64,000 nt of DNA from Candidatus Gottesmanbacteria bacterium GW2011_GWA2_43_14 (GTDB taxonomy: Bacteria; Patescibacteriota; Microgenomatia; 2-02-FULL-39-11): the NCBI GenBank assembly GCA_000999095.1, contig LCFP01000002.1, positions 69,736 through 133,735 on the forward strand, in the 5' to 3' direction. Each line of letters begins with the position of its first letter. Within the stretch, counting starts at the first letter, position 1. Made by a program: the position numbers and the translations under genes. The notes beneath the pieces were generated by a model. That model made no database searches, was not told the origin of the DNA, and saw only the letters and a program-made list of their open reading frames with translations. Of the stretch, positions 14,443 to 51,406 are shown piece after piece.

Positions 14443-14443
14443 T

Positions 14444-15577: not shown

Positions 15578-15591
15578 TTTTACAAACTTTT

Positions 15592-16836: not shown

Positions 16837-16846
16837 ACTGGAATAT

Positions 16847-17899
16847 ATGGACCAAAAACTGCAGCAACTCCGAAACAGTACAATTAAAGAAATATCGGGT
16901 ATAAAATCCCGTGTTGACTTGAACCGCCTTTATTTAAAAATTTTCGGTTCCTCCGGAGAGTTTACCTTACTTCTCAAATCTATCCCTGAATTGCCCAAGG
17001 AAGTCAGGCCGAAAATCGGAAAACTGGCTAATCAGGTGAAAAAGGAACTGGAACAGGCAATTCTGATAAAAGGCCGGGATTTGGAAAAAGGCCGGTTAAC
17101 GGAAAAAATGGATGTTACCTTTCCGGCTGTTTTGCCTCCCCTGGGACATTTGCATATCGTTACCAAGGCGATTGAGGAGATCGTGCTAATTTTTGAGAAA
17201 ATAGGCTTTAACAACAGGCATTACCGGGAAATTGAATGGGACTGGTATGCCTTTGAAAGCCTGAACATGCCGAAAAACCATCCGGCTCGCGATGATTTCG
17301 AGACTTTTTACATTGACGAACCTCCTTCACCTTCATTCGGACAGATGGTCCTGTCACCCCATACTTCCAGCGGACAGGTCAGGGAAATGGAGGCTTTAAA
17401 AAGCCGGCCGCCTGTCAGGATGATCAATATCGCCAAATGTTACCGCCCTAACTGGGATTTGACCCATACACCCATGTTCCATCAGTTTGAAGGGCTGGTC
17501 GTCGATAAGGGGATCAATATTACCCACCTCAAGGGAACCCTTGATTATTTCGCCAGGGAGTTTTTCGGCAGCGAAAGGAAAACCCGCCTGAGACCATTCC
17601 ACTTCCAGTTTACCGAACCCTCATTCGAGGTTGATATAAATTGCGGTATCTGTCTGGGCAAAGGCAAATTGGAAAACGGGGAAAACTGCAGGTTTTGTAA
17701 AAGCGGCTGGCTGGAATTGGGCGGCGCGGGCATGGTGCATCCCGAGGTGCTGAAGGCGGGTAAAATCAACAGCCAGGACTATACAGGATTTGCTTTCGGC
17801 TGGGGTATTGAACGGACTTATATGATGAAATCGGGGACCAGGCTTGATGATATCAGGCTTTTATACGGCAATGATATCAGATTTTTGGAGCAATTCTGA
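16847..17899 (+). CDS. pheS: Phenylalanyl-tRNA synthetase alpha subunit
   Basis: Class II motifs (FEGLVVDKGINITHLKGTL, RLRPFHFQFTEPSFEVD, GWLELGGAGMVHPEVL). Carries a Cys4 insertion (CGICLGKGK...CRFCKSGW). Confidence 0.9.
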   Translation: MDQKLQQLRNSTIKEISGIKSRVDLNRLYLKIFGSSGEFTLLLKSIPELPKEVRPKIGKLANQVKKELEQAILIKGRDLEKGRLTEKMDVTFPAVLPPLGHLHIVTKAIEEIVLIFEKIGFNNRHYREIEWDWYAFESLNMPKNHPARDDFETFYIDEPPSPSFGQMVLSPHTSSGQVREMEALKSRPPVRMINIAKCYRPNWDLTHTPMFHQFEGLVVDKGINITHLKGTLDYFAREFFGSERKTRLRPFHFQFTEPSFEVDINCGICLGKGKLENGENCRFCKSGWLELGGAGMVHPEVLKAGKINSQDYTGFAFGWGIERTYMMKSGTRLDDIRLLYGNDIRFLEQF

Positions 17900-19902
17900 T
17901 GAATATCTTAGTTCCCGATTCATGGCTGAGAGAATATTTGCAAACGGAAGCTACACCCCTTGATATCAAACGCTGCCTGTCGCTTTGCGGCCCGTCTGTG
18001 GAAAAAGTTAATGACATAGATAAAGAGAAGGTTTATGAAATCGAGATTACCACAAACCGGGTCGATATGGCTTCCGTTTACGGAATAGCCCGGGAAGCAT
18101 CGGCCATCCTGCCGCGTTTCGGCTTTACCGCCAAATTAAAACCGCTGCCTTTGCCGGAAAAAATCTCAGCGGCCAACGTGTTACCACTTGATATCAGCGA
18201 CCCCCGGCAGCTTTGCCGCCGCATCCTCGCAATTGTCATGGACAATGTCACTCTGGGGCAATCGCCGGAGTCTGTCAGCAAACGCCTGGAAGATAGCGGT
18301 GTCCGCAGTCTGAACAATGCCGTAGACGTGACAAATTACGTCATGCTCGAACTGGGTCATCCTGTACATGTCTTTGACTACGACCGCATAAAAACAAACC
18401 GCTTTTTGATCAGAACCGCCAAAAAATATGAGCCGATAGTCACTTTGGACGGAAAAAAATATCTCCTTAATGAAAATGACGTCATTATCGACGACGGTAC
18501 GGGCAGAGTCATAGATTTACCGGGAATTATGGGAACGGAAAACAGTGTGGTAGCGGAAAATACCAAAAGGATTATCCTTTTTATCGAATCCAACGATCCG
18601 GCCCGTATCAGAAAATCTTCACTTACCTACGGCATCAGGACCATGGCCGCCGCCATCAACGAGAAATCGCCAGATCCGGAACTGGCCTATCTGGCCCTTG
18701 AACGGGGAATCGTTTTGATGAAAAAGTTATGCGGTGCTGAACCGGCCGGCCAAATTATTGACATTTACCCCGAACGGCTAAAGAAAGTGTCAATATCTGT
18801 TTCACCTGAATTCATCAACAGCCGGTTGGGCAAAGATCTGTCCCGGAAGGAAATAACTTCAATACTTTCCTCCTTAAATTTCGATGTAAGTGAGGATAAT
18901 GATAAATTAATCAAAGTTATACCTCCTTCATACCGAAGTTTCGATGTCAGGCTGGCTGAAGACATTGTTGAAGAAGTAGCCCGCATTTACGGCTACCATA
19001 ATTTGCCTTCGTGCCTTATGGAAGGACAAATCCCCATATCGGGCAGTTCCATAAATTTCATCAGGAAAAATCAAATAAAAAAAATGCTGAAATACTGGGG
19101 CTATACCGAAACCTACAGCTATTCATTTATATCAGATGAGCTGATATCCAAAACAAAACTGGACATTACGGATCATCTGAAAATCTCAAATCCGCTGACG
19201 AATGATTTTGCATATATGCGGATATCTCTCGTTCCTTCAATTTTGGAGGCATATGCTAAAAACCAGGCTCTGAAAAAAGACCTCAAGCTTTTCGAACTAT
19301 CTGCGGTATATCAAAAAAAGAAAAATGATTTACCGGTTGAACCGGAGCGGCTGGTCATTGCCGAAAATGCTGATTTTTACCGTCATAAAGGAACAGTTGA
19401 AGGCGTTTTCCGTGAAATTGGCTTAACGGGTTGGACTGTCAAAATTAGTGCTCCGGAATTTTGGCATCCCGGAAAATCACTAACCTATCATTTGGGTAAA
19501 GATATTCTTGGGTATGCGGGACAATTACACCCTGAAGTCGCTTCTTCCTTCCGGATTAAAGAGGAAGTCTGCCTGGCTGAACTGGATATTGAAATTTTAT
19601 TGAAATTCGCCAGTGACGCCAAAATCTTCAAGAGGATTATTTCGACCCCCGAGGTCATTGAAAACTTTTCCGTATATTTAACACCGGAAATTATGGTCGG
19701 AACGCTGATAAGTGACATCAGAAGGATAAATAAATTTATCAGCCTGGTCAGTCTGACAGAGAAGTATTCTGACAGCATTAATCTGGAAATCCGTTATCGG
19801 CACCCCGAACGCAATCTGGATAAAAAGGAAATCGAGTATATTAGACGACAGATAGAAAATCTTATCAAGAAACAATTCGGACTCAAACTTAAAAATATTT
19901 AA
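17899..19902 (+). CDS. pheT: Phenylalanyl-tRNA synthetase beta subunit
   Basis: B3/B4 and B5 domain motifs (ITTNRVDMASVYGIAREASA), 667 aa, ATGA-coupled to pheS. Confidence 0.85.
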   Translation: MNILVPDSWLREYLQTEATPLDIKRCLSLCGPSVEKVNDIDKEKVYEIEITTNRVDMASVYGIAREASAILPRFGFTAKLKPLPLPEKISAANVLPLDISDPRQLCRRILAIVMDNVTLGQSPESVSKRLEDSGVRSLNNAVDVTNYVMLELGHPVHVFDYDRIKTNRFLIRTAKKYEPIVTLDGKKYLLNENDVIIDDGTGRVIDLPGIMGTENSVVAENTKRIILFIESNDPARIRKSSLTYGIRTMAAAINEKSPDPELAYLALERGIVLMKKLCGAEPAGQIIDIYPERLKKVSISVSPEFINSRLGKDLSRKEITSILSSLNFDVSEDNDKLIKVIPPSYRSFDVRLAEDIVEEVARIYGYHNLPSCLMEGQIPISGSSINFIRKNQIKKMLKYWGYTETYSYSFISDELISKTKLDITDHLKISNPLTNDFAYMRISLVPSILEAYAKNQALKKDLKLFELSAVYQKKKNDLPVEPERLVIAENADFYRHKGTVEGVFREIGLTGWTVKISAPEFWHPGKSLTYHLGKDILGYAGQLHPEVASSFRIKEEVCLAELDIEILLKFASDAKIFKRIISTPEVIENFSVYLTPEIMVGTLISDIRRINKFISLVSLTEKYSDSINLEIRYRHPERNLDKKEIEYIRRQIENLIKKQFGLKLKNI

Positions 19903-19965
19903 GCTTTTGCTTCACCTTCTCTTCGGCTGATTTTATGTTAAAATACAGGCGCTTCTAACTATTTA

Positions 19966-20064
19966 ATGGGTAAAATGTCATTTTCCAAAGGTTTTATTTT
20001 TCAGAAATTAGAACAAAAAACGATAATTTTTGACGGAGAAAACTCATTTCTGCATAAAAGGTAA
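19966..20064 (+). pseudogene. 32-aa ORF equal to the N-terminal third of a PqqD-like protein, ended by a premature stop (probable decayed PqqD-like gene).
   Basis: MGKMSFSKGFIFQKLEQKTIIFDGENSFLHKR aligns closely to residues 13-45 of the PqqD-like protein at 48931..49248 (MKKITVNKGFVSRKLGKKTMIFDGEKSLLI). It lies 20 nt upstream of the HprK-like paralog. Confidence 0.4.
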
Positions 20065-20084
20065 TATCAAATGCTTAAAAATTA

Positions 20085-20885
20085 ATGACGAATAATTGTC
20101 TCTTCTTGAATATCGCCGATTATTACTTCAAAATAAATTTTTTGGAAAATGACCTTAAATTTATTTTTGATAATCTCAAAAAAGAAATTGGCAGTAAATT
20201 TTCAGGATTTATCAGTACCAATATCCCAAAAAAATATCAATTTGAAATAAATATTATTGTAAGTAATAAATTTGATGTTTTTTTTAACCGTAATAAAAAA
20301 GATGTATATATAAAGTTTTACAGATATACATCACCTTATACTGTTGAGACTTACTATCAAATAAGTATCTACCAGTTTCAACTGATTTTAATAGATGGGA
20401 TTTACAGAATTTTGATAAAAAATAAAGCCTTTATATTTCATGCATCGGCCAATCTGATCAACGGAAAGGCAAGTTTATTTTTAGGCGGTGATGGCGCAGG
20501 AAAATCAACAATCATGAAAATTTTAAGAAATAAATTTACGCCTTTGGCCGATGACAGCATGATTATCCGGAAAATTAAGGATAAATATTATGCTTTCCAA
20601 ACTCCTTTTATAGAAAAAGAAACGTGGTTAAAGAGAAAAAAGGGGAAATATCTGCTTGGTAAAATATATTTTATAAATAAAGCTGATTTTTATTCGATTA
20701 AAAAAATCAGCAGTATAGAATCAGCACTTAAAAAAACTATAGAGCTAAATAAGCATTTCAGCATAACTGACAAGGAATATTACCAGCAAGTTAAATCGCA
20801 AATGGAATTTACTTCAGACTTTCCCTACCAGTATAATCTCCATTTCGGACTCAATAAAAAGAAGGTATTATCCTTATTCATTTAA
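20085..20885 (+). CDS. HPr-kinase/phosphorylase-C-domain-like P-loop protein (paralog of 48086..48934)
   Basis: AFIFHASANLINGKASLFLGGDGAGKSTIMKIL...PLADDSMII matches the Hpr_kinase_C Walker-A region (H..v..G.G.L..G.SG.GKS...L....LvADD) and aligns to the second copy in the window. A+T-rich codon usage. Confidence 0.55.
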   Translation: MTNNCLFLNIADYYFKINFLENDLKFIFDNLKKEIGSKFSGFISTNIPKKYQFEINIIVSNKFDVFFNRNKKDVYIKFYRYTSPYTVETYYQISIYQFQLILIDGIYRILIKNKAFIFHASANLINGKASLFLGGDGAGKSTIMKILRNKFTPLADDSMIIRKIKDKYYAFQTPFIEKETWLKRKKGKYLLGKIYFINKADFYSIKKISSIESALKKTIELNKHFSITDKEYYQQVKSQMEFTSDFPYQYNLHFGLNKKKVLSLFI

Positions 20886-22077
20886 AATAACGACTGACGA
20901 CAAATTCGGGACTGGTTTTTAACGGAAGGAATGGTAAATATTTTTTTTCAGAATAACCTGCTTTTAAACTCTTCTTCATGATCAGAATGCCGTTGCTGAT
21001 TTTTTTTATCTTTAATCTTTGAAAATATTTTACTAAATTCTCAGTTTGTTGCAGATATATTTTATAATCGGCTTTTAACAAATCATGGCTGATCAGCCAT
21101 GAATAATGATACGGGTCACTTTCACTGAGTATTAAATATAGAATTTTATATTTTTTTTTATTTTGGCCTAACCATCTATCGGCTGATTTTCTAAATTCAT
21201 CTTGTTCTGATTCATGGATAGTACAATTTACATGGCTAAATCCATCATCTGAAAGATGATCGGGAATGCTGCTTATAATCTTTTCCAAAATGTTTATACC
21301 TGGTTTTTGAGATAAGGAAGATATATCACCATTTTCAAGTATTGATTTTATACTGGGGGGATTGGCAACTATTAAATCATATTTTTCGCCGGCTGCAGAT
21401 TCGAATAAATTACTTAATTTGAATTCAATATTTCCTGCTTGATTTAACCGGAAATTAAAATTGCTATAGTTTATTGCCCGAGGATTAATATCAACGGCTG
21501 CAACTTTTTGAGAAATTAGGGAAGATATAATTGCATGAAAACCGCACCCTGTCCCCAAATCAAATACTGATCTGTATTTTTTTTTAACTACGGATTCCCA
21601 GAGATTGATAGAATCATGACTGATGGGGTAAACTGTTTCCTTAAAGGAATATAAAACAAGTTTATCTTCACTGTAGTCAAATCTGAACAAAAAATCGCAG
21701 GTAAAAAAAAGATTGTGATAAGGCAAAATTGAGACTTTGGACTGTATCGCGTTTCCGTATGTTTCCTCTAAGATACTGAGATGTATGTACCTTTTAATCA
21801 TACTGACCGGAATAATTGCGGCTAAATCTTTAATTAATACTTTATTTCCTAAAAAAAATAAATAAAAGCCGATTCCCTGAAATTTCAGGTGTCTGACTTT
21901 CTGGATTAAAACTGCATATTCCGCAAATGATCTTCTGTATGGATCTATATTAGATTGACGGAAGTCTGAAGTAGTATAACCAAGTTGATGAAATAAATTC
22001 CTTAGGGAATCATAGTCCTGCCGCTTAAACAGATGAAGTGGAAGGGTAGTATCAGGAACAATTCTGTCGATTACCAT
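20878..22077 (-). CDS. Class I SAM-dependent methyltransferase, HemK/PrmC-like (NPPS motif), with an ~150-aa N-terminal extension.
   Basis: SAM motif I VFDLGTGCGFHAI, AAVDINPRAI, and catalytic motif IVANPPS (NPPY-type). Confidence 0.6.
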   Translation of the reverse strand: MVIDRIVPDTTLPLHLFKRQDYDSLRNLFHQLGYTTSDFRQSNIDPYRRSFAEYAVLIQKVRHLKFQGIGFYLFFLGNKVLIKDLAAIIPVSMIKRYIHLSILEETYGNAIQSKVSILPYHNLFFTCDFLFRFDYSEDKLVLYSFKETVYPISHDSINLWESVVKKKYRSVFDLGTGCGFHAIISSLISQKVAAVDINPRAINYSNFNFRLNQAGNIEFKLSNLFESAAGEKYDLIVANPPSIKSILENGDISSLSQKPGINILEKIISSIPDHLSDDGFSHVNCTIHESEQDEFRKSADRWLGQNKKKYKILYLILSESDPYHYSWLISHDLLKADYKIYLQQTENLVKYFQRLKIKKISNGILIMKKSLKAGYSEKKYLPFLPLKTSPEFVVSRYFK

Positions 22078-22100
22078 TTAAGGCTGTACTCCCGGGAAAA

Positions 22101-22595
22101 TTATAGTGAAGTATATTTTTCTACTCGCTTTTCAAGCATTCTCAATTTTTTTTCCGTTATACTATTTTTTTCTGTAAGTTCTTTTATTGCTTCAACTAAA
22201 ATTGCTGTAAAGGCAGGGTAGTTAACCCCCAGATAATTTCGGTTAATTTTTTTAGCAAGTTGAGGAAAGGCAATTTTTACGTCTTGTGCCAGCAAACCCA
22301 TGGAGTCGGTGTTTTTCTGAATGCCTAACGACTTAAAAGATCTTTTCCATTGAAATTCATAAGCCTGAAGTCTTTTAATTTTTTCCAAAACCTTCTTAAC
22401 CGGCTTGAGTTTATTTTTTAATTTCCTGTCACTACAGGAGAAACAAGTTCCACAGCAGGCTAAGAGTTCACCATTGACTTCCGGAATGAAATTAAAATAA
22501 CCATCGTATTCATCATATAAATTAAAAAACATATTCAGCTTTATTTTTACTGATTTAATAGCAGGCTTTCTGTAAATGGGATATTTTTTCTTCAT
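22101..22595 (-). CDS. Small protein: an N-terminal ~54-aa Lys-rich/Cys-rich peptide fused to a C-terminal Peptidase-S74-type intramolecular chaperone auto-processing domain.
   Basis: The C-terminal region SDRKLKNKL..LEKIKRLQAYEFQWK..MGLLAQDVKIAFPQL..YLGVNYPAFTAILVEAIKEL matches the phage tail-spike chaperone consensus (sDrrLK..pvsY.y......G.iAQeve...Pe..dYs.LvpllieAikeL). The N-terminal part, ending ..ELLACCGTCFSC, is homologous to the peptide at 47940..48131. Confidence 0.55.
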   Translation of the reverse strand: MKKKYPIYRKPAIKSVKIKLNMFFNLYDEYDGYFNFIPEVNGELLACCGTCFSCSDRKLKNKLKPVKKVLEKIKRLQAYEFQWKRSFKSLGIQKNTDSMGLLAQDVKIAFPQLAKKINRNYLGVNYPAFTAILVEAIKELTEKNSITEKKLRMLEKRVEKYTSL

Positions 22596-22678
22596 AACAG
22601 GGTAATTTTATTAATCTAATTTATAATACCGAAATTAGAGCTTCTATGTCAATCATTTGCATCCGCCCGGCAAATACA

Positions 22679-23701
22679 TCAGCTCTTTTTTAATTCAGTC
22701 CTTTTCTTTTTAATCTCTCCGGCAATTATCTGATGAATTTCTTTTGCATAATGGCAGTGGAAAAAAGTAGAAGGGTTTGCCTGTGATTGAAGATAACGAT
22801 TAATGGCCTCAGACGGATCAAGACAGAGATTGCTGTTTTTACGGCAATATGAAAGATATACCGGATTATTTGCTTCCCCTGCCGAAGTCAGTTCTTTATA
22901 ACTTGGAATATTTACCAGCATCATTGTTGCACCGGATTCGACAACTGCTGTTTGCATTTCATTAAGCAAAGCCATGGCTATTTTATTGGTTTCAGAACGG
23001 ACTTTTTCCTGATTTACATAATATTTATCATAAATCATGCTTAAGATATCTGATAAGATTAAATGAAATTGCCCGGCATATTTTTTGGGGTCTGTTAAAG
23101 GTTGATTAACCTGCGTTAATTTTCCCCCGACAAAGGCGAATTTAGGCTTTTGATAATCAATAAAGCCGTATTTCACTCTTTCTACATCATCACTGTAAAA
23201 ACCAACTATTACCATATCAGGTTGATATTTCAATGCCCGTTTTAATTTTAAGTACTCCTGATCCAAACCATAGCCATGAACTCCCATATTAAAGACTTCA
23301 GTATCTTCGGAGATTTTTTCCAAATAATAGGAATAAGTTTCCTCATCATCCGCACACTCCCCGAATGTATAGGAGTCTCCAATGGCGATAATTCTGTTTT
23401 TTTTTCGTTGATTGATATAATTATCAGGGGCTCTGAAACCTTCTGAATTGATAGTGACTTTCGTGCCGTCAACAAGCTGGGCTTTGGTGTCTTTTTTAGG
23501 AATCCACCCCAATAGAGGATCGAATTCGTAGATTTCAGGAAGATGGGTAGGCGAGTTATTGGTTCGCTGGGTGTGCCAATACCATTTCCACCAGCCTTCT
23601 GATTTTTGATAGTTTATTTGATAGAAAGGTGTTCTTAAAAAAACTTCAGTTATAATTATTCCTGATGTCAAACCAATAATAATTAATAATATTTTTTTCA
23701 T
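22679..23701 (-). CDS. Membrane-anchored SGNH/GDSL-family hydrolase (paralog 1 of 3)
   Basis: N-terminal TM helix; GDS block IIAIGDSYTFGEC. More distant from the two paralogs at 55024 and 60577. Confidence 0.55.
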   Translation of the reverse strand: MKKILLIIIGLTSGIIITEVFLRTPFYQINYQKSEGWWKWYWHTQRTNNSPTHLPEIYEFDPLLGWIPKKDTKAQLVDGTKVTINSEGFRAPDNYINQRKKNRIIAIGDSYTFGECADDEETYSYYLEKISEDTEVFNMGVHGYGLDQEYLKLKRALKYQPDMVIVGFYSDDVERVKYGFIDYQKPKFAFVGGKLTQVNQPLTDPKKYAGQFHLILSDILSMIYDKYYVNQEKVRSETNKIAMALLNEMQTAVVESGATMMLVNIPSYKELTSAGEANNPVYLSYCRKNSNLCLDPSEAINRYLQSQANPSTFFHCHYAKEIHQIIAGEIKKKRTELKKS

Positions 23702-23826
23702 TTCCGGCTTGTTTTTTACCTTATGTATGATATTGTCTGAATTAATCTTATTGAAAGAGATTTTTTATAAGTAATTTTTTAACCCGATCTTCGGCATTAT
23801 CTTAACATATGTTTAATGATTGACTT

Positions 23827-25845
23827 ATGAATTCTAAAAAAAACTCATATAAGAGAATCTCTTTCTTGAAAAAGATTTTTATTCTATCATTTTTATTATC
23901 GATCCCTGTAATATATATTTTTTATGATGATTTTATTCGATCAGCAAAAACTGTTTACTATTTTGATATGGATGACTCTTCACAGGAATTATTGATTCCT
24001 TCCGGTCAAAATCATCCGGTATTGAAAATAGCGGGTAAAGTCAGGGAAATTACAGGCATCAAAAATAAAGCCTTAGAGCTTGAAGAACAGAACCGTTTGA
24101 CCTGCCTAAATAATATTACTTGCCTCAAATTAGATATCGACAAAGGTTTGAGTCTGATTCTTTGGATTAAAATAAAATCCGGTGATAAAAAACCCTTTCA
24201 ACAGGAAATTATCTCATTAACCCAGAATTACGGTGATAATTTTAAGAAAAAAAGTTTTTACAACGTCTTTGACTTGGCAACATTAAACAGTCAGGCCAAG
24301 GGATATATCAGCGGTATCTTTGACGGCAGGTACCTATATTTAATTCCGATAAAAAATGATTTGAAATATCATGGTCTCGTTGCTAGGTATGATACATCCA
24401 AAGTTTTTAACCAAACCAACTCCTGGGAGATATTTGATACGGAAAAAATCAATAAAGCCGCCAAAGGCTACGGCGGGGGAGTCTTTGACGGTCAATATAT
24501 CTACCTGGTTCCCAATTATAACGATAATACCCGTTCCGGTCTTGTAGTCAGATTTGATACCCGAAAGGAATTCCGGAATAAGTCTTCCTGGGAGATTTTT
24601 GATACCACTCTGCTTAATGACAATTCCCGAGGTTTTTGGGGCGGGATATTTGACGGCCGTTATATTTATTTTGTACCACATCACCACAACAAAGATTATT
24701 CCGGCGTAATTACGCAATATGACACAACTTCAGCATTTTCTTCTCCTGATGCCTGGAGAATTACCGACATCACTAAATTCAACAGTCGAGCCAAAGGATT
24801 TTTAGGAGGAATATATGACGGCAGGTATGTCTATTTTATCCCTAACCGTACCGGCGTAGACATTTTCAGCGGTTTGTTGGGGATTTATGACACCGGAAAA
24901 GATCTGCAATCAGCCTCTGCCTGGCAATTTTTCGATATTCAAAAATTGAATCCCCAGGCAAAAGGCTTTGCCGGTGGAGTCTTTGACGGCAGGTACATCT
25001 ACCTGGCACCTTTATTTTCCGATCCTGTTAATTTTAACGGACTGTCGGCCAGGTATGACACCCGGTTGCCCCTGCTTTCTCCTTTAGCCTGGCAATTTAA
25101 CAACTTGAGCAATCTGGATCAGAATGCTAAAGGCTTTATTGATATCGCCTTTGACGGTAAAAATCTATACTATATTCCGTTCAGAAACCGCTACACTGAA
25201 AGTGAAGAAATTATGGCTGGAGGACTGAAATCCTGGTGTTCTGCCGATCAAACAGGCGGATTCAGCGGTACTATTGCCCGTTATAAGACAGGTGATGATT
25301 TTAGCCGAAATCAGTCATGGTCTTTTTTCGATTTAACTTCTATTGATTCAACATATAAAGGTTTTTGGGGCGGCGCTTTTGACGGGCGTTTCCTTTATTA
25401 TATTCCGGTTAAGTTTGCCTGCTCAATCTTAAGCAGCCAAATTATAAGGTATGATACGGTCGATACAGCACTCAGCCAAATAAAACTGATTGTCTCTCCC
25501 GTCTTTCAAAGCAGCTTTTCGTCCCAGAATAAGTCGGATCTTGTTTTAACCGGAAATATATTACGTCAGAATATCTCAATCTACTCCGGGGAAAATATTG
25601 CCGATAATCAGTGGCATCAGCTTGCTTTGGTAATTGACGGTTCTTCAGCCAGTCTCTATGTTGATGGCAAACAAAAAAAGGTAAAATATCCTGATCAGAT
25701 CAAGAATAAAATCGGGGATTTTTTGCTGACTGTCGGTAATGCAGACAGGGAGAATACGGCCGACTTTGCAATTGACGAAATTCAAATATATAATCACTCC
25801 CTGACTATAGAGAACATTAATCAACTGTATCTTAAATTCAAATGA
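23827..25845 (+). CDS. Membrane-anchored repeat protein: ~7-8 tandem ~48-aa repeats (probable beta-propeller) plus a C-terminal LamG/concanavalin-like domain.
   Basis: Repeats N..AKGF.GG[IV]FDGRY[IV]Y[LF][IV]P....sGL[VI].RYDT......SW.[IF]FD recur at least 7 times. The C-terminus NQWHQLALVIDGSSASLYVDGK...EIQIYNHSLT is a LamG-like motif. N-terminal TM anchor. Confidence 0.5.
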   Translation: MNSKKNSYKRISFLKKIFILSFLLSIPVIYIFYDDFIRSAKTVYYFDMDDSSQELLIPSGQNHPVLKIAGKVREITGIKNKALELEEQNRLTCLNNITCLKLDIDKGLSLILWIKIKSGDKKPFQQEIISLTQNYGDNFKKKSFYNVFDLATLNSQAKGYISGIFDGRYLYLIPIKNDLKYHGLVARYDTSKVFNQTNSWEIFDTEKINKAAKGYGGGVFDGQYIYLVPNYNDNTRSGLVVRFDTRKEFRNKSSWEIFDTTLLNDNSRGFWGGIFDGRYIYFVPHHHNKDYSGVITQYDTTSAFSSPDAWRITDITKFNSRAKGFLGGIYDGRYVYFIPNRTGVDIFSGLLGIYDTGKDLQSASAWQFFDIQKLNPQAKGFAGGVFDGRYIYLAPLFSDPVNFNGLSARYDTRLPLLSPLAWQFNNLSNLDQNAKGFIDIAFDGKNLYYIPFRNRYTESEEIMAGGLKSWCSADQTGGFSGTIARYKTGDDFSRNQSWSFFDLTSIDSTYKGFWGGAFDGRFLYYIPVKFACSILSSQIIRYDTVDTALSQIKLIVSPVFQSSFSSQNKSDLVLTGNILRQNISIYSGENIADNQWHQLALVIDGSSASLYVDGKQKKVKYPDQIKNKIGDFLLTVGNADRENTADFAIDEIQIYNHSLTIENINQLYLKFK

Positions 25846-25880
25846 AGGAAAACGCTGACAGAAGCCTGTTCTTCCTATTT

Positions 25881-26438
25881 CTATAATCGGGTTATTTGCC
25901 AAGCATAAAGTGCCTGCCCGCTTTTTGACTGGGAGATATCCATGGAAACTGTTATTTTAATCCTGTCTCCGAGCTGAAGTTCGGTTAATTCCAATTTATT
26001 TTCCGACAAATCCGTAAAAGTGTACTGTGATTTCTGTTTTTCAGTATCTTCAGGAAACTTCATCGGATGAAGTCCACCATCTTCACCTCTAAGGATAAAA
26101 GTAAAAGGAGGCTTATCAGAAATCATAATTTCCTGAATTTCTCCCTCTAAAGTTACGCTGACGACAAATTGTTTAAGCACATCAGGGTTAATTTTGAGGG
26201 AGCTGTCGAGCAAATTCATCAAGAGAACACTGTCCAATCCGTTAATACTCACAGCCGGTGACGGAAAAGCCGGCGCCGGAAAATTGCTCTTGTTATTTTG
26301 TTCATTTATTCCAGCCAGATTCCGGAAGATAGCCTGGAAGTTGAAATTGAGAGAGTAATAGTAAATAATTTCAATAATCGTCAGAGTCAATAAAAGACCC
26401 AGTATTATTATTAGGAGTTTGCGAGAACGAATTATCAT
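25881..26438 (-). CDS. Hypothetical membrane-anchored protein
   Basis: ORF with an N-terminal TM segment (LLIIILGLLLTLTIIEII). Start set at the internal ATG (MIIRSRK) to avoid abutting the divergent downstream gene. No motif recognised. Confidence 0.3.
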   Translation of the reverse strand: MIIRSRKLLIIILGLLLTLTIIEIIYYYSLNFNFQAIFRNLAGINEQNNKSNFPAPAFPSPAVSINGLDSVLLMNLLDSSLKINPDVLKQFVVSVTLEGEIQEIMISDKPPFTFILRGEDGGLHPMKFPEDTEKQKSQYTFTDLSENKLELTELQLGDRIKITVSMDISQSKSGQALYAWQITRL

Positions 26439-26471
26439 CTTCCTTCTTATCGTATAAAATGACTGATACAT

Positions 26472-44791: not shown

Positions 44792-44884
44792 TGATCTTAA
44801 TACTTTTTACCCGGAATTATTCTATGTCAAGCCGGGTTTTTAATAAAGGATGAAAGACGGATCAATAATATATAATACCTTCAA

Positions 44885-46048
44885 ATGAAAATCGCCATGG
44901 TTGTTTATGCCCAATATTCCCGCGATGCCAGAGTCAGGCGTTATGCCGAAAGCCTGGCAGGCAAAGGACACCAGGTTGATATTATTTGTTTAAAGGAGGA
45001 TTATTCACCGCAATATAAAAAGCTGAAGCTTTATAAGTTTCCTTTTCCCAGAAGAAGGAAAAACTTTTCCTGGTATTTTTTAGAGTACGGTTTATTTTTT
45101 TGCTATACTTTCGGTCTTCTGTCAATTCTCTCTTTGTTCAAAAAATATAAGATTGTCCATATTCACAATATGCCGGATTTCCTGGTTTTTACTGCCGTTA
45201 TGCCCAAATTCCGGGGCAGCCGGATCATTCTTGACATGCATGATCCCATGCCGGAACTGTTGATGACTAAATACCGTTTGAATCACTCCCACTGGCTGAT
45301 GAATTTGGTATATTTTTTGGAGAGGCAAGCCTTTATTTTCGCCGACAAAATAATAACTGCCAACAGTGAGTTTAAAAAGATATTTTTGGAAAGGCAGACT
45401 ATTTCCGCTGATAAGATTGAAGTCATACTGAATTACCCTGATCCCAAATTATTTAAACCCGTGAGCAGAAAAACGGCATCGGAAAATTTCATTTTAATGT
45501 ACATGGGAACAGTTGACGAGCGTTTCGGGCTGGATATCGCCTTGGAGGCAATCCCGGCAATTAAAAATAAAATTCCTCAAATCAAGTTGATTATCATCCC
45601 GAAAATATCCGGCGAGGGCAATTACTACAGCCAATTAGTGCAGCGTATTACCAAGCTGAAAATCGGACGGTATGTGGAAATACGTAAGCCGGTGGCGCTG
45701 GATGAAATCGCCAAAGAAATTCACCTGGCTGATATCGGGTTAACCTTGGTCAAAAAAAATCTTTTTACGGAAAAAATCTTACCTTTGAAACTGACGGAAT
45801 TTATGGCGGGCGGTATTCCCGTGATTGCCACAAGAACCAAACTACTGAGCAGATATTTTTCCGGCAAAATGATCTGTTATCTTACGGAAAATACTTCAGC
45901 GGAATTCAGCCGTAAAGTTCTGTTTCTATACCGGAATAAAAAACAAAGGGAATTATACGGCAAAAATGCCCTGTTGTTTTTCCGGAAATATAACTGGCAC
46001 ATGGAAGAAAAAAAATATTACCGCATAATCCGGACATTGACACAGTAA
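44885..46048 (+). CDS. Glycosyltransferase family 4 (GT-B fold)
   Basis: C-terminal E..GIPVIAT motif (LTEFMAGGIPVIATRT). TATAAT 8 nt upstream of the ATG. Confidence 0.7.
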   Translation: MKIAMVVYAQYSRDARVRRYAESLAGKGHQVDIICLKEDYSPQYKKLKLYKFPFPRRRKNFSWYFLEYGLFFCYTFGLLSILSLFKKYKIVHIHNMPDFLVFTAVMPKFRGSRIILDMHDPMPELLMTKYRLNHSHWLMNLVYFLERQAFIFADKIITANSEFKKIFLERQTISADKIEVILNYPDPKLFKPVSRKTASENFILMYMGTVDERFGLDIALEAIPAIKNKIPQIKLIIIPKISGEGNYYSQLVQRITKLKIGRYVEIRKPVALDEIAKEIHLADIGLTLVKKNLFTEKILPLKLTEFMAGGIPVIATRTKLLSRYFSGKMICYLTENTSAEFSRKVLFLYRNKKQRELYGKNALLFFRKYNWHMEEKKYYRIIRTLTQ

Positions 46049-47325
46049 TGACGTACTCCCGAATATTAAATCTTCTGATAAAAAAAAAACAGATAATAGT
46101 CAGTGCTGAAGGCGGCAGCATGCTGCCCGTACTTCATCCCGGTGATGTGCTGTATCTGACGAAAACCAATTTCTCAAAAGTCAATGAAGGGGAAATCATT
46201 TTTGCCAAAAAAAAAGGTAAATTTTTCATCCACAGGATAATTTATAAAGGGAAGAATTATCTTATCACCAAAGGAGACGCAAACCGTGTTTCAGACGGTA
46301 AAATTGCACCGGGTCAAATTTTTGCCAAACTGATTAAACTGAAAAGGCAAGGCCGGATTCTTTCTCCGGAATACTATAACCTCATCCAGTCCACCTATTA
46401 CATCAGGGAAATAAACCGTGTAATAAAGGCTTTTAAACGCCATCAGCTTGATTATGTGTTCCTAAAAGGTTTACCCCTTTATCTTTATCTTCAGAAGATG
46501 ATCCCATTGCGTTTCTATGCAGATTGTGATCTTTTGATCGCCCGGAAGGATTACCGGAAGGCAGCCTTTCTTTTGGAAAAAATAGGATTTAAATTCAATG
46601 ACCGGTCATTTTCCGGCCTCCATCGTCTGCTTAAAAAAAAACCGACCGAATATATGTTTATCAAGAAAAAAGGGGTTTTCCCGGTAGTTCTGGATATCCA
46701 CTTGGAACCGGTATTTTTAATGAACCAGTTAAGCGGGCTGGATTGCTTATATCCCCAACTTTACCTCGATAAATTATCCTCGGATTTTCTTAAAAAAAAG
46801 CAAGACGCCGTCATCAACAACAGTATGTTCAGACTGCTGTCTTCCTCTCATCAAATCATTTATCTTGCCCTTCATTTTTTCCATCACAATTTCAGGGGTT
46901 TTCACAGATTACAGCTTCTCCGGGATTCAGTTCAACATTATTCGGGACCATGGGAGAAACCGGCTGAAATGATTAAAAAATACAAGCTGGATAATTTCGT
47001 TTACCCTGCATTTGCGGCCGTTAAGCGCTTCTACCCGGGGACATTAACCGGCAAATACCTGACTGCTATAACTCCTTCGGCCGCAGTCTTAGATAAAACA
47101 AAAGCAATATTGAAGGATATTGAACTTTCTTCTGAAGAAAGCCAACTGAAAGAGGGAATCGAGAGGTTTATGAATATATTTCTGTTTTCCCCTCAGCCGA
47201 ATTTAAAAAAAATATCCGTATTCCTCAATCCGCAGGTTCTATATTCAATTTTATTCACAGTTTTTGAACAGCTGCAACATATTGACCGGTTGATATTTCT
47301 TAAGAAAAAATCCGCCGAATCGTAA
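46048..47325 (+). CDS. Fusion protein: an N-terminal SipW/Sec11-type (S26B) signal-peptidase-like domain without a TM anchor, plus a C-terminal PF14907-like nucleotidyltransferase domain.
   Basis: S26B motifs GGSMLPVLHPGDVLYL (Ser), FIHRIIY (His), ITKGDANRVSDG (Asp). The nucleotidyltransferase pattern FLKGLPLYLYLQKMIPLRFYADCDLLIARKDY..AAFLLEKIGF matches (hKG..Y...R...DxDLLV...A..LL...GF). TAATG-coupled to the upstream GT4. Confidence 0.55.
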   Translation: MTYSRILNLLIKKKQIIVSAEGGSMLPVLHPGDVLYLTKTNFSKVNEGEIIFAKKKGKFFIHRIIYKGKNYLITKGDANRVSDGKIAPGQIFAKLIKLKRQGRILSPEYYNLIQSTYYIREINRVIKAFKRHQLDYVFLKGLPLYLYLQKMIPLRFYADCDLLIARKDYRKAAFLLEKIGFKFNDRSFSGLHRLLKKKPTEYMFIKKKGVFPVVLDIHLEPVFLMNQLSGLDCLYPQLYLDKLSSDFLKKKQDAVINNSMFRLLSSSHQIIYLALHFFHHNFRGFHRLQLLRDSVQHYSGPWEKPAEMIKKYKLDNFVYPAFAAVKRFYPGTLTGKYLTAITPSAAVLDKTKAILKDIELSSEESQLKEGIERFMNIFLFSPQPNLKKISVFLNPQVLYSILFTVFEQLQHIDRLIFLKKKSAES

Positions 47326-47939: not shown

Positions 47940-48131
47940 ATGCCTCACAGTCGTAAAAGAAGTTCGTCTAAAAAATATAGTAGACCAAAATTAACCCTTT
48001 CCAAAGTAAAATTAAATCTGTTTTCATTTCCTTTGGAATATTTTCCGGATGAGGATTTTTTTTTAAATTCGGTTAATGCAGCAGTTTATTGTCCTGGTTT
48101 TTGTGATCCGGAAGCCTGCAATAAATGCTGA
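47940..48131 (+). CDS. Candidate 63-aa Lys/Arg-rich, C-terminally Cys-rich peptide (putative modified-peptide precursor), paralogous to the N-terminal part of 22101..22595.
   Basis: MPHSRKRSSSKKYSRPKLTLSKVKLNLFSFPLEYFPDEDFFLNSVNAAVYCPGFCDPEACNKC aligns to KKKYPIYRKPAIKSVKIKLNMFFNLYDEY..FNFIPEVNGELLACCGTCFSC. It overlaps the convergent HprK-like gene 3' end by 46 nt and contains a T9 run, so a spurious ORF cannot be excluded. Confidence 0.4.
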   Translation: MPHSRKRSSSKKYSRPKLTLSKVKLNLFSFPLEYFPDEDFFLNSVNAAVYCPGFCDPEACNKC

Positions 48132-48934
48132 TTCCCTTTCAAAAATAAATCCCATAGTTTTTGCCTATCAAGTCCCGAATGGAGGTCAAAAAATGTGTCA
48201 TTTTTATCAATAAAATCCAGCAAGTATTTCATCTGCTTTCCGGTATGACCGCTGTCCGTGAAAAAAACCCTGATCAATTTTTTCAGGACAAGCTGTTTGT
48301 CTTTTATTTTTTTAGACCGGTAATTCATGTCCTTGTGTAGAAAAAATAATTTACCCATTTTATAACGCCTGACGGATTTCCCGACCCATGCCTGTTTATC
48401 AATCATCGGAGCCTGATATAGAAAATAGTTATTTTTTTCTTTTTTGATTATAAGCGTATCATCTGCCAGCGGAAGACATTTTTCAGCCAGAAGGCGAAGG
48501 ATGGTGGATTTCCCCGCTCCTGATTTTCCCAAGAAAATATGAGCCTGATCATCAATATAAACAGCGGAACCGTGGAATATAAACCCTTTGTTCTCTGCCA
48601 GTAAATTCTGCAGAATAGTCCTTATGATGATGATAAGCTGCACAATTCCTATATGATAAAATGAAATTGCGGTATTCTTCCCTTTATTTTCATAAAAATT
48701 AATAAAGTGCTTGTTGCTTTTCTTTTCGCTTAAGACATCCATACCCAATCTGTCAATAAAATGTACGGTGGCATCCACGTGGATGTAGGTTTTTTTGACT
48801 ATAAAACCTCCCAGGGAAAATTCAACCTCTTTTATCAGATGATGCCGGGTGGAAGGCCAGTCTGTCGGATGGAAAACGAGTCTGAAGGTAAAGCCTGCAA
48901 TTTTAAGATAAACGGAGGAGTTTGACTGTTTCAT
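48086..48934 (-). CDS. HPr-kinase/phosphorylase-C-domain-like P-loop protein (putative peptide kinase)
   Basis: GFIFHGSAVYIDDQAHIFLGKSGAGKSTILRLLAEKCLPLADDTLII matches the Hpr_kinase_C Walker-A region. Coupled by a 4-nt overlap to the PqqD-like gene. Confidence 0.6.
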   Translation of the reverse strand: MKQSNSSVYLKIAGFTFRLVFHPTDWPSTRHHLIKEVEFSLGGFIVKKTYIHVDATVHFIDRLGMDVLSEKKSNKHFINFYENKGKNTAISFYHIGIVQLIIIIRTILQNLLAENKGFIFHGSAVYIDDQAHIFLGKSGAGKSTILRLLAEKCLPLADDTLIIKKEKNNYFLYQAPMIDKQAWVGKSVRRYKMGKLFFLHKDMNYRSKKIKDKQLVLKKLIRVFFTDSGHTGKQMKYLLDFIDKNDTFFDLHSGLDRQKLWDLFLKGNQHLLQASGSQKPGQ

Positions 48935-49248
48935 CCATGATCGGCTTTATTTCCTATACTGATGATGTTTTCTTTGGCTAATACTTTTAAAAAGTCATCG
49001 ACATCCCGTTTGGCCGTATCGTTATTCAAGCCGTATTCCGACTTAAGAAATAAAGTTATTTCTTCCTTTCCTTCCCCCTTTAACAGTCTTTTAAATATTT
49101 CCGAGGCGGTTTCATTCAGAGTTATCAGCAGGGATTTTTCTCCGTCAAAGATCATCGTCTTTTTGCCCAACTTCCTGCTTACGAATCCCTTGTTGACAGT
49201 GATTTTTTTCATGACTTTTCCTCGACTGATGTGATGAGCCCATCCCAT
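48931..49248 (-). CDS. PqqD-family protein (RiPP recognition element-like)
   Basis: ~105 aa; KKTMIFDGEKSLLITLNETASEIFKRLLKGEGKEEITLFLKSEYGL..AKRDVDDFLKVLAKENII follows the PqqD pattern (beta-strands then helices; ..L.D.E.G.YY.LN..A..IW.LL.G..T..EI...L...Y.V..E.A..DV..FL..L...GLI). Confidence 0.6.
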   Translation of the reverse strand: MGWAHHISRGKVMKKITVNKGFVSRKLGKKTMIFDGEKSLLITLNETASEIFKRLLKGEGKEEITLFLKSEYGLNNDTAKRDVDDFLKVLAKENIISIGNKADHG

Positions 49249-51405: not shown

Positions 51406-51406
51406 C

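What the first reader, a model, noticed from the sequence alone, without database searches (positions are those of the whole stretch)
19966..22595. Second, partly decayed copy of the PqqD/HprK locus, with a HemK-like methyltransferase
A 32-aa ORF at 19966-20064 reproduces the N-terminal third of the PqqD-like protein from the 48.9-kb locus (KGFIFQKLEQKTIIFDGENSFL versus KGFVSRKLGKKTMIFDGEKSLL) and then stops. An HprK-like P-loop paralog follows 20 nt downstream at 20085-20885. Convergent with these are a HemK/PrmC-like NPPS methyltransferase with a long N-terminal extension (20878-22077) and the S74-fused Cys-rich peptide (22101-22595), upstream of which sits an SGNH hydrolase. So the system is duplicated 26 kb apart. 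The intact PqqD copy at 48.9 kb may serve both loci, or the truncated copy may be a pseudogene. The methyltransferase is a candidate additional tailoring enzyme.
Basis: seen in the sequence. Interest (0 to 1): 0.65.

Follow-up and report, generated by a model that had tools for sequence, protein, structure and literature searches.

The report
Second peptide-maturation locus with broken PqqD
This small groundwater bacterium carries a second, old and divergent copy of a peptide-modifying gene set in which the peptide-binding helper gene (PqqD) is cut down to a 32-codon stump, while the enzyme and an unusual self-cleaving precursor peptide next to it look intact.

Summary
The ORF at 19966-20064 matches the N-terminus of the PqqD at 48.9 kb (16/29 identical). 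ScmC1 starts 20 nt downstream, so the rest of PqqD is deleted, not frameshifted. A separately built 97-kb assembly is 100% identical here.

The window is Candidatus Gottesmanbacteria (CPR). The "HprK-like" genes belong to the ScmC family (PF27840), about 140 relatives found. ScmC1 is intact: it keeps all family-invariant residues, and its AF2 model (pLDDT 95) has a PEPCK/HprK fold. It is not a recent duplicate of ScmC2 (33% identity, closer to proteins from other genomes).

The S74-fused peptide belongs to a family of at least 14 small proteins: a Lys-rich leader shared with the free precursors, a Cys-rich core, then an invariant S-D-x-x-x-K self-cleavage site. Related loci carry S74- or Hint-fused precursors, often with YcaO and a dehydrogenase. 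Neither is present in this window.

The methyltransferase fails the PrmC/HemK cut-offs. Its fold is closest to GenN and to AerE, a RiPP amide N-methyltransferase. It is absent from the 8 related loci examined and has a 7-nt frameshift allele in other assemblies.

Verdict: a real second ScmC-type locus with a PqqD pseudogene, probably served in trans by the 48.9-kb PqqD. Moderately interesting.

The parts
19966..20064 (+). PqqD/RRE pseudogene remnant. Codons 1-29 (19966-20052) match the N-terminal beta-strand region of PqqD, followed by H-K-R-stop. About 60 codons, including all helices of the winged helix, are missing.
20085..20885 (+). ScmC1: an intact ScmC-family (PF27840) P-loop protein with a PEPCK/HprK-like two-domain fold. 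The P-loop G134-T142 lies at nt 20484-20510. H119, K140, S141 and D156-D157 are conserved.
20878..22077 (-). Class I SAM-dependent N-methyltransferase with a GenN/AerE-like fold, the motif N239-P-P-S (nt 21363-21352) and an N-terminal helical domain. It lacks the C-terminal DUF7782 domain of its relatives. It lies 23 nt downstream of the precursor gene, and its 3' end overlaps ScmC1 by 8 nt.
21487..21493 (-). The 7 nt TGATATT are present here but absent in three short ENA contigs. The deletion frameshifts the methyltransferase inside the V-D-I-N SAM-binding motif.
22101..22595 (-). Precursor fused to a self-cleaving Peptidase_S74 domain. The leader is residues 1-~43 (Y8, K10-P11, K17-I-K-L-N-M-F23). 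The L44-L-A46 + Cys-rich core C47-C-G-T-C-F-S-C54 lies at nt 22466-22434. The predicted cleavage is before S55 (nt 22433-22431), with the dyad partner K60. The S74 domain is residues 55-113.
22623..22652 (-). Promoter-like site TTGACA-18-TATTAT (11 of 12 matches), 28 nt upstream of the precursor ATG.
22679..23701 (-). Weak SGNH/GDSL-type hydrolase, a paralog (29% identity) of 55024-56088 near the other locus. Probably a cell-envelope glycan gene rather than part of the peptide system.
25881..26471 (-). 196-aa single-pass membrane protein, a weak paralog of the 186-aa protein at 47374-47934. In all related loci a protein of this type sits next to the precursor.
46048..47325 (+). Locus 2: a fusion of an S24/S26-type peptidase and NTP_transf_5. 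It is the candidate leader peptidase and nucleotidyl/glycosyl transferase, and there is no counterpart in locus 1.
47940..48131 (+). Locus 2: free 63-aa precursor with the same leader motif and a Cys-rich C-terminus.
48086..48934 (-). Locus 2: ScmC2, identical to P0012 of Candidatus Gottesmanbacteria GW2011_GWA2.
48931..49248 (-). Locus 2: intact PqqD/RRE. The likely true start is M13 at 49212, which has an SD-like GAGGA upstream. This is the candidate trans-acting partner for locus 1.

Best explanation
Window 19966-22595, with the membrane-protein gene at 25881-26471, is a second and anciently diverged ScmC-type peptide-maturation (RiPP-like) locus of a Candidatus Gottesmanbacteria genome.

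Shown. It once had the PqqD-then-ScmC order of the 48.9-kb locus. An internal deletion then removed about 60 codons of PqqD, leaving a 32-codon stump that lacks the helices of the leader-binding winged helix. The deletion is recent relative to the paralog split. ScmC1, a P-loop protein with a PEPCK/HprK fold, is intact. So is the precursor, which consists of a leader, a Cys-rich core and an S74 domain.

Inferred mechanism. The precursor is transcribed from its own promoter together with the methyltransferase. The intact PqqD of the 48.9-kb locus binds its leader (K-K-Y-x-K-P-x-I-K-x-x-K-I-K-L-N-x-F, shared with the free 63-aa precursor) in trans. That PqqD presents the core to ScmC1, which uses ATP for a phosphotransfer-type modification, by analogy with the HprK-homolog kinases of lasso clusters. 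The S74 domain trimerises and cleaves itself off between C54 and S55 using the S55/K60 dyad, which defines the C-terminus of the core. The leader is then removed, possibly after L-L-A46, by the S24/S26-NTP_transf_5 protein of the other locus. The methyltransferase is a lineage-specific addition that may N-methylate the peptide in the manner of AerE, or may act on an envelope glycan in the manner of GenN.
For: - PqqD stump: similarity and geometry are. An independent assembly is identical.
- Timing of the truncation: at identical amino acids 7 of 15 codons are the same, against 6.7 expected from codon usage. That is the same saturation as the ScmC pair (41%), so there was no recent copying. The 55% amino-acid identity equals that among intact family PqqD N-termini, so the gene was under selection until recently.
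- ScmC1 is intact: it has all 5 invariant and 11 near-invariant family residues. It scores 276 bits against a family HMM built without it, rank 55 of 96. The AF2 model has pLDDT 95.3 and pTM 0.90. Its fold matches PEPCK (E 8e-9) and HprK/P (E 1.6e-5).
- The leader motif is shared by free, S74-fused and Hint-fused precursors from 7 loci.
- Related loci: L015 has ScmC without PqqD, plus YcaO, nitroreductase, an S74-fused precursor and the membrane protein. L004 has a PqqD-less ScmC-YcaO-nitroreductase-membrane protein-Hint-fused precursor locus 7 kb from a PqqD-ScmC-free precursor locus.
- A promoter-like site lies upstream of the precursor gene.
- Precedent for an HprK-homolog kinase and a nucleotidyltransferase acting on RiPP precursors: PMC8498205.
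- The methyltransferase fold matches AerE and GenN with E 1e-18 to 6e-20 and TM 0.62-0.70. AerE is a RiPP Asn N-methyltransferase (PMC9060474).
Against: - No chemistry, expression or binding data exist. The activity of ScmC is unknown in any system.
- Ser/Thr are not universal in the cores: the 63-aa precursor has none after N-S-V.
- Related loci with fused precursors usually contain YcaO and a dehydrogenase, which are absent from the whole 64-kb window. Locus 1 may therefore be incomplete.
- Trans use of PqqD is inferred only from the shared leader motif and the L004 precedent.
- The methyltransferase has Ser where AerE has F234, which is essential there. It has a frameshift allele and is not found in the other loci.
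Confidence: 0.72

Rival explanations
1. Locus 1 as a whole is a decaying relic that no longer makes a product. PqqD is truncated, YcaO and the dehydrogenase are lost, the membrane-protein gene is separated by inserted genes, and the methyltransferase is drifting.
For: The PqqD stump. No YcaO or nitroreductase anywhere in the window, although 2 of 2 other PqqD-less fused-precursor loci have them. The SGNH and LamG genes lie between the precursor and the 196-aa membrane protein. There is a 7-nt frameshift allele of the methyltransferase, and NPPS replaces NPP[YF].
Against: ScmC1 keeps every invariant residue, has a typical HMM score and gives a confident fold. The precursor keeps the leader motif, the core and the S/D/K cleavage residues, and has a near-consensus promoter. 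YcaO-less loci with free precursors (L001, L013, window locus 2) show that YcaO is an optional module.
Confidence: 0.18
2. The 32-aa ORF is a functional micro-protein, for example a beta-strand module that docks on ScmC1 or on the leader, rather than a pseudogene.
For: The ORF is intact with an ATG. Amino-acid identity of 55% is retained although synonymous sites are saturated.
Against: It keeps only beta1, beta2 and half of beta3, and only ~10 of the 67 Pfam PqqD positions; Pfam gives no hit. The other PqqD-less loci (L004-A, L015) have no such mini-ORF upstream of ScmC. The conservation is equally explained by a recent truncation. The SD-like sequence of the intact gene is missing, though SD use is rare in this genome (9 of 48 genes), so this is weak evidence.
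Confidence: 0.07
3. The truncation is an assembly or sequencing artefact, and a full-length PqqD exists in the organism.
For: The genome is a metagenome assembly. Three short ENA contigs break inside ScmC1 at ~20470-20492 and do not cover the stump.
Against: Only 20 nt separate the stop from ScmC1, and no frame holds the missing residues. A separately assembled 97-kb Logan contig is 100% identical over 14 kb, and 5 long contigs carry the same PheT with the same neighbours.
Confidence: 0.03
4. The methyltransferase is unrelated to the peptide system. It would be a cell-envelope or small-molecule N-methyltransferase that merely lies next to the precursor inside a glycan-biosynthesis region.
For: It is absent from all 8 other ScmC loci examined. 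Its relatives P0004 and P0009 sit in unrelated contexts. The best sequence match in the PDB is GenN, an aminoglycoside N-methyltransferase. The surrounding genes are glycosyltransferases, Wzy_C, PMT_2 and SGNH.
Against: There is a 23-nt gap on the same strand directly downstream of the precursor, with a promoter-like site only upstream of the precursor. The full-length fold matches the RiPP enzyme AerE about as well as it matches GenN.
Confidence: 0.5

Closest known systems
SynChlorMet (SCM) cassette protein ScmC / Pfam PF27840 with a PqqD-family RRE
   Same: ScmC1 and ScmC2 and about 140 relatives carry PF27840 in the precomputed annotation. They pair with a small PqqD protein and a short Cys-rich precursor.
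   Different: TIGR04249 scores only 21-26 bits against a cut-off of 125. There are no radical SAM partners here. The partners are NTP_transf_5/S24 peptidase, a membrane protein and, in relatives, YcaO plus a dehydrogenase. Some precursors are fused to self-cleaving domains.
HPr-kinase-homolog kinases and nucleotidyltransferases of lasso peptide clusters (paeninodin, pseudomycoidin)
   Same: Both combine a PqqD RRE, an HprK-fold P-loop protein and a nucleotidyltransferase, sometimes fused to the leader protease, acting on a ribosomal precursor (PMC8498205). The H...GxxGxGKS...DD constellation is kept.
   Different: There is no lasso cyclase: the nearby Asn synthase is a true Ntn-Cys amidotransferase and scores 256 bits against a cut-off of 525 for the cyclase model. 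No B2 transglutaminase protease was found. The cores are Cys-rich and have no C-terminal Ser.
YcaO/dehydrogenase azol(in)e peptide (TOMM/LAP) systems
   Same: Relatives L004-A, L015, L021, L022 and L023 place ScmC next to, or overlapping, YcaO and a nitroreductase-type dehydrogenase, with Cys-rich cores.
   Different: The window has no YcaO or dehydrogenase. No E1-like or Ocin-ThiF partner is seen in these loci; ScmC plus a discrete PqqD sit where one would be expected.
Peptidase S74 intramolecular chaperone domain of phage tail fibres and endosialidases
   Same: The domain passes the Pfam cut-off, and the S-D-x-x-x-K site is invariant. Phage fibres show the same S-D-x-R-L-K junction.
   Different: In this window it is attached to a ~54-aa leader-plus-core peptide in a 150-175-aa protein, rather than to a 400-2400-aa fibre. 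It sits in a cellular RiPP-like locus.
AerE/PoyE (proteusin Asn N-methyltransferase) and GenN (gentamicin N-methyltransferase)
   Same: The full-length fold matches with E 1e-18 to 6e-20 and TMq 0.62-0.70. The sequence match to GenN has E 6e-13 and to AerE 1e-6. The Asn of the N-P-P-x motif aligns with AerE N231.
   Different: Identity is 15-17%. Ser replaces the aromatic residue, although F234A is inactive in AerE. No proteusin-type precursor or epimerase is present.

Membership tests
PqqD / RRE (PF05402) | Pfam domain match above the gathering score | tested here: not met
   The 32-aa ORF gives no Pfam hit at E<=0.1. The intact 48.9-kb copy scores 46.4 bits against 23.4.
PqqD / RRE (PF05402) | Complete three-strand sheet plus three-helix winged helix | tested here: not met
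   The fragment ends at the position of S-L-L in beta3. The L-N-x-T-A motif and all helices of the 7-member family alignment are missing.
ScmC family (PF27840) | Family-level sequence match and invariant residues | tested here: met
   An unmarked PF27840 hit on the identical 266-aa gene in L019. All invariant residues are present. It scores 276 bits against a family HMM built without it.
ScmC equivalog TIGR04249 (SynChlorMet cassette) | Score above the NCBIfam cut-off | tested here: not met
   25.8 bits for ScmC1 and 21.1 bits for ScmC2 against a cut-off of 125.
HPr kinase/phosphorylase | TIGR00679 / PF07475 above the cut-off | tested here: not met
   ScmC1 gives no hit. ScmC2 scores 27.7 bits against 240 and 15.8 bits against 33.3.
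HPr kinase/phosphorylase | P-loop kinase fold shared with PEPCK | tested here: met
   Foldseek gives PEPCK E 8e-9 (TMq ~0.5) and HprK/P E 1.6e-5 to 4e-4.
HPr kinase/phosphorylase | Kinase activity on a Ser of a protein or peptide substrate | not testable with these tools
   This needs biochemistry.
PrmC/HemK N5-glutamine methyltransferase | TIGR03534 / TIGR00536 above the cut-off | tested here: not met
   61.7 bits against 199.1, and 58.7 bits against 115.5.
PrmC/HemK N5-glutamine methyltransferase | NPPY motif | tested here: not met
   The motif is N239-P-P-S. Relatives have NPP[YF].
GenN/AerE-type N-methyltransferases | Full-length fold, N-terminal helical subdomain plus Rossmann domain | tested here: met
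   Foldseek E 6e-20 for GenN and 1e-18 for AerE, with TMq 0.62-0.70. The model has mean pLDDT 72.
GenN/AerE-type N-methyltransferases | AerE catalytic residues (Y137, D141, N231, F234) | tested here: inconclusive
   The Asn is conserved and F234 is replaced by Ser. A Y150...D155 pair is present, but with different spacing and it is not conserved in the relatives.
Peptidase S74 (PF13884) | Domain above the cut-off and a Ser/Lys dyad | tested here: met
   43.8 bits against 22. S55, D56 and K60 are invariant in 16 of 16 family members.
Peptidase S74 (PF13884) | Autoproteolysis after trimerisation | not testable with these tools
   This needs expression and mass spectrometry.
Lasso peptide cluster | Lasso cyclase and B2 protease | tested here: not met
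   The Asn synthase scores 256 bits against 525 for NF033535 and has an MCGIAG amidotransferase N-terminus. No transglutaminase-type protease is seen in the loci.
YcaO azoline (TOMM/LAP) cluster | YcaO cyclodehydratase in the locus | tested here: not met
   tblastn with two YcaO and two dehydrogenase queries from related loci finds nothing in the 64-kb window. The rest of the genome was not examined.

The most novel reading that the evidence does not exclude
S74- and Hint-fused small proteins next to ScmC (and YcaO) genes in CPR Microgenomates may represent an undescribed precursor logic for ribosomal peptides. A self-cleaving C-terminal 'follower' domain would oligomerise or present the Cys-rich core to the modifying enzymes and then excise itself. 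The S74 type would leave a defined carboxyl end. The Hint type would leave a thioester that could be captured. In this genome such a locus would work without its own RRE, borrowing the PqqD of the sister locus, and would have recruited an AerE-like N-methyltransferase.
Probability: 0.3. Interest if true: 0.75.

Novelty: new variant of a known kind. Interest (0 to 1): 0.5.

Why it matters
CPR bacteria have genomes of about 1 Mb and few recognised natural-product pathways. Two loci of one peptide-maturation system in a Gottesmanbacteria genome, one of them apparently relying on the other's leader-binding protein, would be a natural case of an RRE shared in trans.

Following this finding also exposed a family of precursors fused to self-cleaving domains, S74 here and Hint in relatives. 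These share one leader motif with ordinary free precursors and sit beside ScmC, PqqD and YcaO genes. I found no description of this in the searchable literature. If the domains really act as removable followers, that would add a new way of defining or activating a RiPP C-terminus. It would also give the uncharacterised ScmC family a tractable substrate.

The narrower claim of the finding, a pseudogenised PqqD plus a neighbouring methyltransferase, is ordinary gene decay and lineage-specific gene gain.

Tried and rejected
- Genome-contig scan with the ScmC alignment: the tool chose the generic P-loop pattern. It returned only 3 distant hits (Acidobacteriota, Nitrospira, Bacteroidota) that are of no use for synteny.
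- Metagenome contigs exact-pattern search for the core junction C-C-G-T-C-F-S-C-S-D: one hit, a chance match inside an rsmI-like gene of a high-GC organism.
- Viral-contig scan with the S74-precursor alignment: 80 loci, all matching only from residue ~40-55 onward. The four with the longest N-terminal reach that I inspected are long phage tail fibres of 1080-2377 aa. None is leader-bearing.
- Apparent PqqD C-terminal remnant upstream of the L015 YcaO (E 3e-4): rejected. It is Lys-rich low-complexity sequence with in-frame stops.
- Recent copy or gene conversion of the stump from the 48.9-kb PqqD, suggested by a 24/28-nt identical stretch: rejected. Identical-codon use, 7 of 15, equals the codon-usage expectation of 6.7 (P = 0.54).
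- Lasso-peptide cluster reading of the 48.9-kb locus: rejected, see the membership tests.
- The C-terminal DUF7782 of the methyltransferase relatives as an RRE: only suggestive (Pfam PqqD E 0.017 in one protein, hhalign E 0.036). The window protein lacks the domain in any case.
- Rfam gathering-threshold scan of the window: only two tRNAs at 1.2 and 4.2 kb, nothing near the locus.
- Literature searches for S74 + RiPP, ScmC + PqqD and CPR + YcaO found no description of this system.
- Shine-Dalgarno presence is uninformative: only 9 of 48 genes in the window have one.


Full report
**Observation**

- The 32-aa ORF at 19966-20064 aligns to residues 13-41 of the PqqD-family protein at 48931-49248: 16/29 identical, 23/29 similar, E 5e-10 pairwise. 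Against all six frames of the window the match has E 5e-7.
- The intact protein passes Pfam PqqD (46.4 bits against 23.4). The fragment gives no hit.
- After the stop there are only 20 nt before the ATG of the next gene, and none of the three frames encodes the missing ~60 residues. The rest of the gene is therefore deleted, and a sequencing frameshift cannot restore it.
- An exact-protein look-up with PheT found 5 long contigs with the same neighbours. The one retrieved is L019, a Logan assembly of SRR29904086, 97.4 kb long. It is 100% identical to window 11899-25902.
- The two loci lie about 28-29 kb apart, not 26 kb.

**Source and family**

The P-loop protein at 48086-48934 is identical to a protein of Candidatus Gottesmanbacteria bacterium GW2011_GWA2 (UV73_C0002). 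This is a CPR/Microgenomates genome from groundwater metagenomes.

A single-sequence search with the paralog at 20085-20885 (ScmC1) found 2 relatives. A profile search found 142, nearly all carrying Pfam PF27840 (ScmC).

ScmC1 is 33% identical to ScmC2 but 38-42% identical to proteins of other genomes. ScmC2 in turn has much closer relatives elsewhere (P0013 and P0017). In a neighbour-joining tree ScmC1 is a long separate branch. These are old paralogs, not a recent in-genome duplication.

Other paralog pairs between the two regions:
- the membrane proteins 25881-26471 and 47374-47934;
- two SGNH-type hydrolases;
- weakly, the two precursors.

**State of the parts**

*ScmC1.* It keeps all 5 invariant and 11 near-invariant residues of a 96-member alignment: H119, S121, the G134-T142 P-loop, D156-D157, Q172 and P174. 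It scores 276 bits against a family HMM built without it, where the median for the members used to build the model is 288. The AF2 model has pLDDT 95.3 and pTM 0.90. The model matches ATP-dependent PEPCK (E 8e-9, TMq about 0.5) and HprK/P (E 1.6e-5 to 4e-4). 'HprK-like' is therefore right at fold level. However, the HprK and ScmC equivalog models are far below their cut-offs.

*The PqqD stump.* At identical amino acids, 7 of 15 codons are the same, against 6.7 expected from codon usage (P = 0.54). This is the same saturation as the ScmC pair, at 41%. So the stump is not a recent copy of the 48.9-kb gene. Its 55% amino-acid identity is what intact family PqqDs show in this N-terminal stretch. 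The simplest reading is that a full-length PqqD was under selection here for most of the time since the paralogs split and was truncated recently.

The stump keeps beta1, beta2 and half of beta3. It lacks the L-N-x-T-A motif and all three helices, so I consider it non-functional as an RRE. This rests on the general RRE architecture and is an inference.

**The precursor**

22101-22595 encodes 164 aa, with Peptidase_S74 at residues 55-113. An exhaustive HMMER search of 1.84 billion representatives gave many phage fibres. It also gave at least 14 small proteins of 147-176 aa that match from residue ~1-10 to the end.

Aligned, these small proteins share four features:
- a leader, Y-[KR]-K-P-x-I-x-x-K-K-I-x-x-N-L-F;
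- a variable linker;
- L-L-A followed by a Cys-rich core, here C47-C-G-T-C-F-S-C54;
- immediately after the core, an invariant S55-D56...K60.

S55 and K60 correspond to the Ser/Lys autoprocessing dyad of S74 intramolecular chaperone domains (this assignment is from my own knowledge). The same S-D-x-R-L-K junction is visible in the phage fibres retrieved.

The same leader motif occurs in three further groups:
- the free 63-aa precursor at 47940-48131;
- free precursors of L001, L004, L013 and L021;
- Hint-fused precursors of L004 (PT-HINT 43.8 bits against 27.7) and L022 (weak match).

A near-consensus promoter-like site (11 of 12 matches) lies just upstream of the precursor gene.

**Context in relatives**

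| Locus | Gene content |
|---|---|
| L001, L013 | ScmC, PqqD, free precursor, membrane protein, NTP_transf_5 |
| L021, L022, L023 | the same plus YcaO and a nitroreductase-type dehydrogenase; L022 also has a Hint-fused precursor and a QueC-PqqD fusion |
| L015 | ScmC without PqqD in the 9.4 kb retrieved (of a 10.2-kb contig), YcaO, dehydrogenase, S74-fused precursor, membrane protein |
| L004 | a PqqD-less ScmC-YcaO-dehydrogenase-membrane protein-Hint precursor locus, 7 kb from a PqqD-ScmC-free precursor-membrane protein locus |

PqqD is thus a regular component of the system. PqqD-less loci do exist, and in L004 such a locus coexists with a PqqD-bearing one. This is the same situation as in this window.

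No PqqD stump is seen upstream of ScmC in L004-A or L015. The window contains no YcaO or dehydrogenase.

**The methyltransferase**

- Pfam gives MTS and PrmA (E about 1e-12). NCBIfam PrmC and HemK models are far below their cut-offs.
- The best PDB sequence matches are GenN (E 6e-13) and AerE (E 1e-6), with HemK only at 1e-4.
- The AF2 model has mean pLDDT 72. It matches GenN and AerE over the full length, with E 6e-20 to 4e-18 and TMq 0.61-0.70.
- AerE is the iterative Asn side-chain N-methyltransferase of the proteusin aeronamide. In AerE, N231 and F234 are essential (PMC9060474). The window protein has N239-P-P-S, whereas its relatives have NPP[YF].
- Its relatives are 474-537 aa long and carry DUF7059, MTS and a C-terminal DUF7782 that the window protein lacks. 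They sit in contexts that are not RiPP-like.
- None of the 8 other ScmC loci has such a gene.
- Three short ENA contigs (2.7 kb, window ~20470-23197) are identical to the window except for a 7-nt deletion at 21487-21493. The deletion frameshifts the V-D-I-N SAM motif.
- The gene lies 23 nt downstream of the precursor on the same strand, so co-transcription is likely.

I therefore rate 'tailoring enzyme of this peptide' and 'unrelated envelope or small-molecule N-methyltransferase' as about equally likely.

**Mechanism**

Shown:
- the locus anatomy;
- the deletion in PqqD;
- the intact ScmC1;
- the leader shared by the two precursors;
- the conserved S74 dyad.

Inferred, step by step:
- The 48.9-kb PqqD binds both leaders.
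- ScmC1 performs an ATP-dependent phosphotransfer-type step on the core. The precedent is the HprK-homolog kinases that act on lasso precursors, with nucleotidyltransferases that are sometimes fused to the leader protease (PMC8498205).
- The S74 domain removes itself at C54|S55.
- The S24/S26-NTP_transf_5 protein of the other locus removes the leader.

The main uncertainty is the chemistry of ScmC, which is unknown in any system. A second open question is whether locus 1 is complete without YcaO.

**Comparison and novelty**

The system works like a PqqD-dependent RiPP pathway and belongs to the ScmC (PF27840) family. It is not a lasso cluster. In this genome it is not a YcaO cluster, and it is not the SynChlorMet cassette proper.

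The pseudogenised PqqD is ordinary gene decay. The precursors fused to S74 or Hint self-cleaving domains, and the apparent sharing of one RRE between two loci, are the unusual features. I found no description of them in the searchable literature, although absence from that library is not proof.

Overall: a new variant of a known kind, of moderate interest.

Noticed in passing
window 21487-21493 (L009-L011): Three short ENA contigs carry a 7-nt deletion (TGATATT) that frameshifts the methyltransferase in its V-D-I-N SAM motif. The contigs come from SAMN03202999, SRR1658466 and a third assembly. The window and a Logan contig have the intact version. This may be a population allele or a recurrent local assembly error.
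   Followed up: partly
window ~20468-20492 and ~23179-23197: All three short contigs end at nearly the same two points, one inside ScmC1 near its P-loop and one inside the SGNH gene. This suggests strain-level heterogeneity in the flanks of the precursor/methyltransferase segment in that sample.
   Followed up: no
L004 13473-14072; L022 10585-11166: Two precursors with the same Lys-rich leader and a Gly/Cys/Ser-rich core are fused to a Hint (intein-like) domain that begins C-F-L-P or C-L-S-P. Both lie next to ScmC, YcaO and a dehydrogenase. This is a second kind of self-cleaving follower.
   Followed up: partly
L022 9078-10223 (-): A 381-aa protein fuses a QueC-like PP-loop ATPase domain to a C-terminal PqqD domain. 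It sits directly beside ScmC and a stand-alone PqqD, and may be an uncharacterised RRE-dependent enzyme.
   Followed up: no
L021 5221-6585; L022 6166-7527: A gene of the sulfatase/phosphodiesterase (alkaline-phosphatase superfamily) type is conserved next to the NTP_transf_5/S24 genes in two YcaO-containing ScmC loci.
   Followed up: no
L013 ~9050-9195 (-); L021 ~8850-9060 (-): Precursor ORFs missed by the gene callers: KKYIKPNIKVKKIKLNLFF...LLLASYTCDGTRVGYCGN in L013, and MNNKKKYSPPTIKVKKIKISLF...GPCGVSGGCLGSGSC... in L021.
   Followed up: partly
window 47940-48131 (+) and 48086-48934 (-): The core-encoding 3' end of the free 63-aa precursor gene overlaps the 3' end of the convergent ScmC2 gene by 46 nt. 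ScmC1 and the methyltransferase overlap by 8 nt in the same tail-to-tail way.
   Followed up: no
window 49212 and 53308-53249: Two likely start-codon corrections. PqqD probably starts at M13, which has a GAGGA 6 nt upstream and gives 93 aa. The Asn-synthase-like amidotransferase probably starts at MCGIAG, 20 codons inside the GTG-called ORF, which makes it a true Ntn-Cys enzyme rather than a lasso cyclase.
   Followed up: partly
P0004-P0009 (relatives of window 20878-22077): The methyltransferase relatives carry a C-terminal DUF7782 of ~110 aa that looks weakly like a PqqD/RRE winged helix (Pfam PqqD E 0.017 in P0008; hhalign E 0.036). The window protein lacks this domain.
   Followed up: partly
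window 23827-25845, 26472-27935, 43073-46048, 49966-53308: Both loci are embedded among cell-envelope glycan genes: LamG-domain protein, PMT_2, Wzy_C, GT4 glycosyltransferases and an EPS-type amidotransferase. The related loci L001, L013, L021, L022 and L023 show the same embedding, which hints at a link between the peptide system and surface glycans.
   Followed up: no
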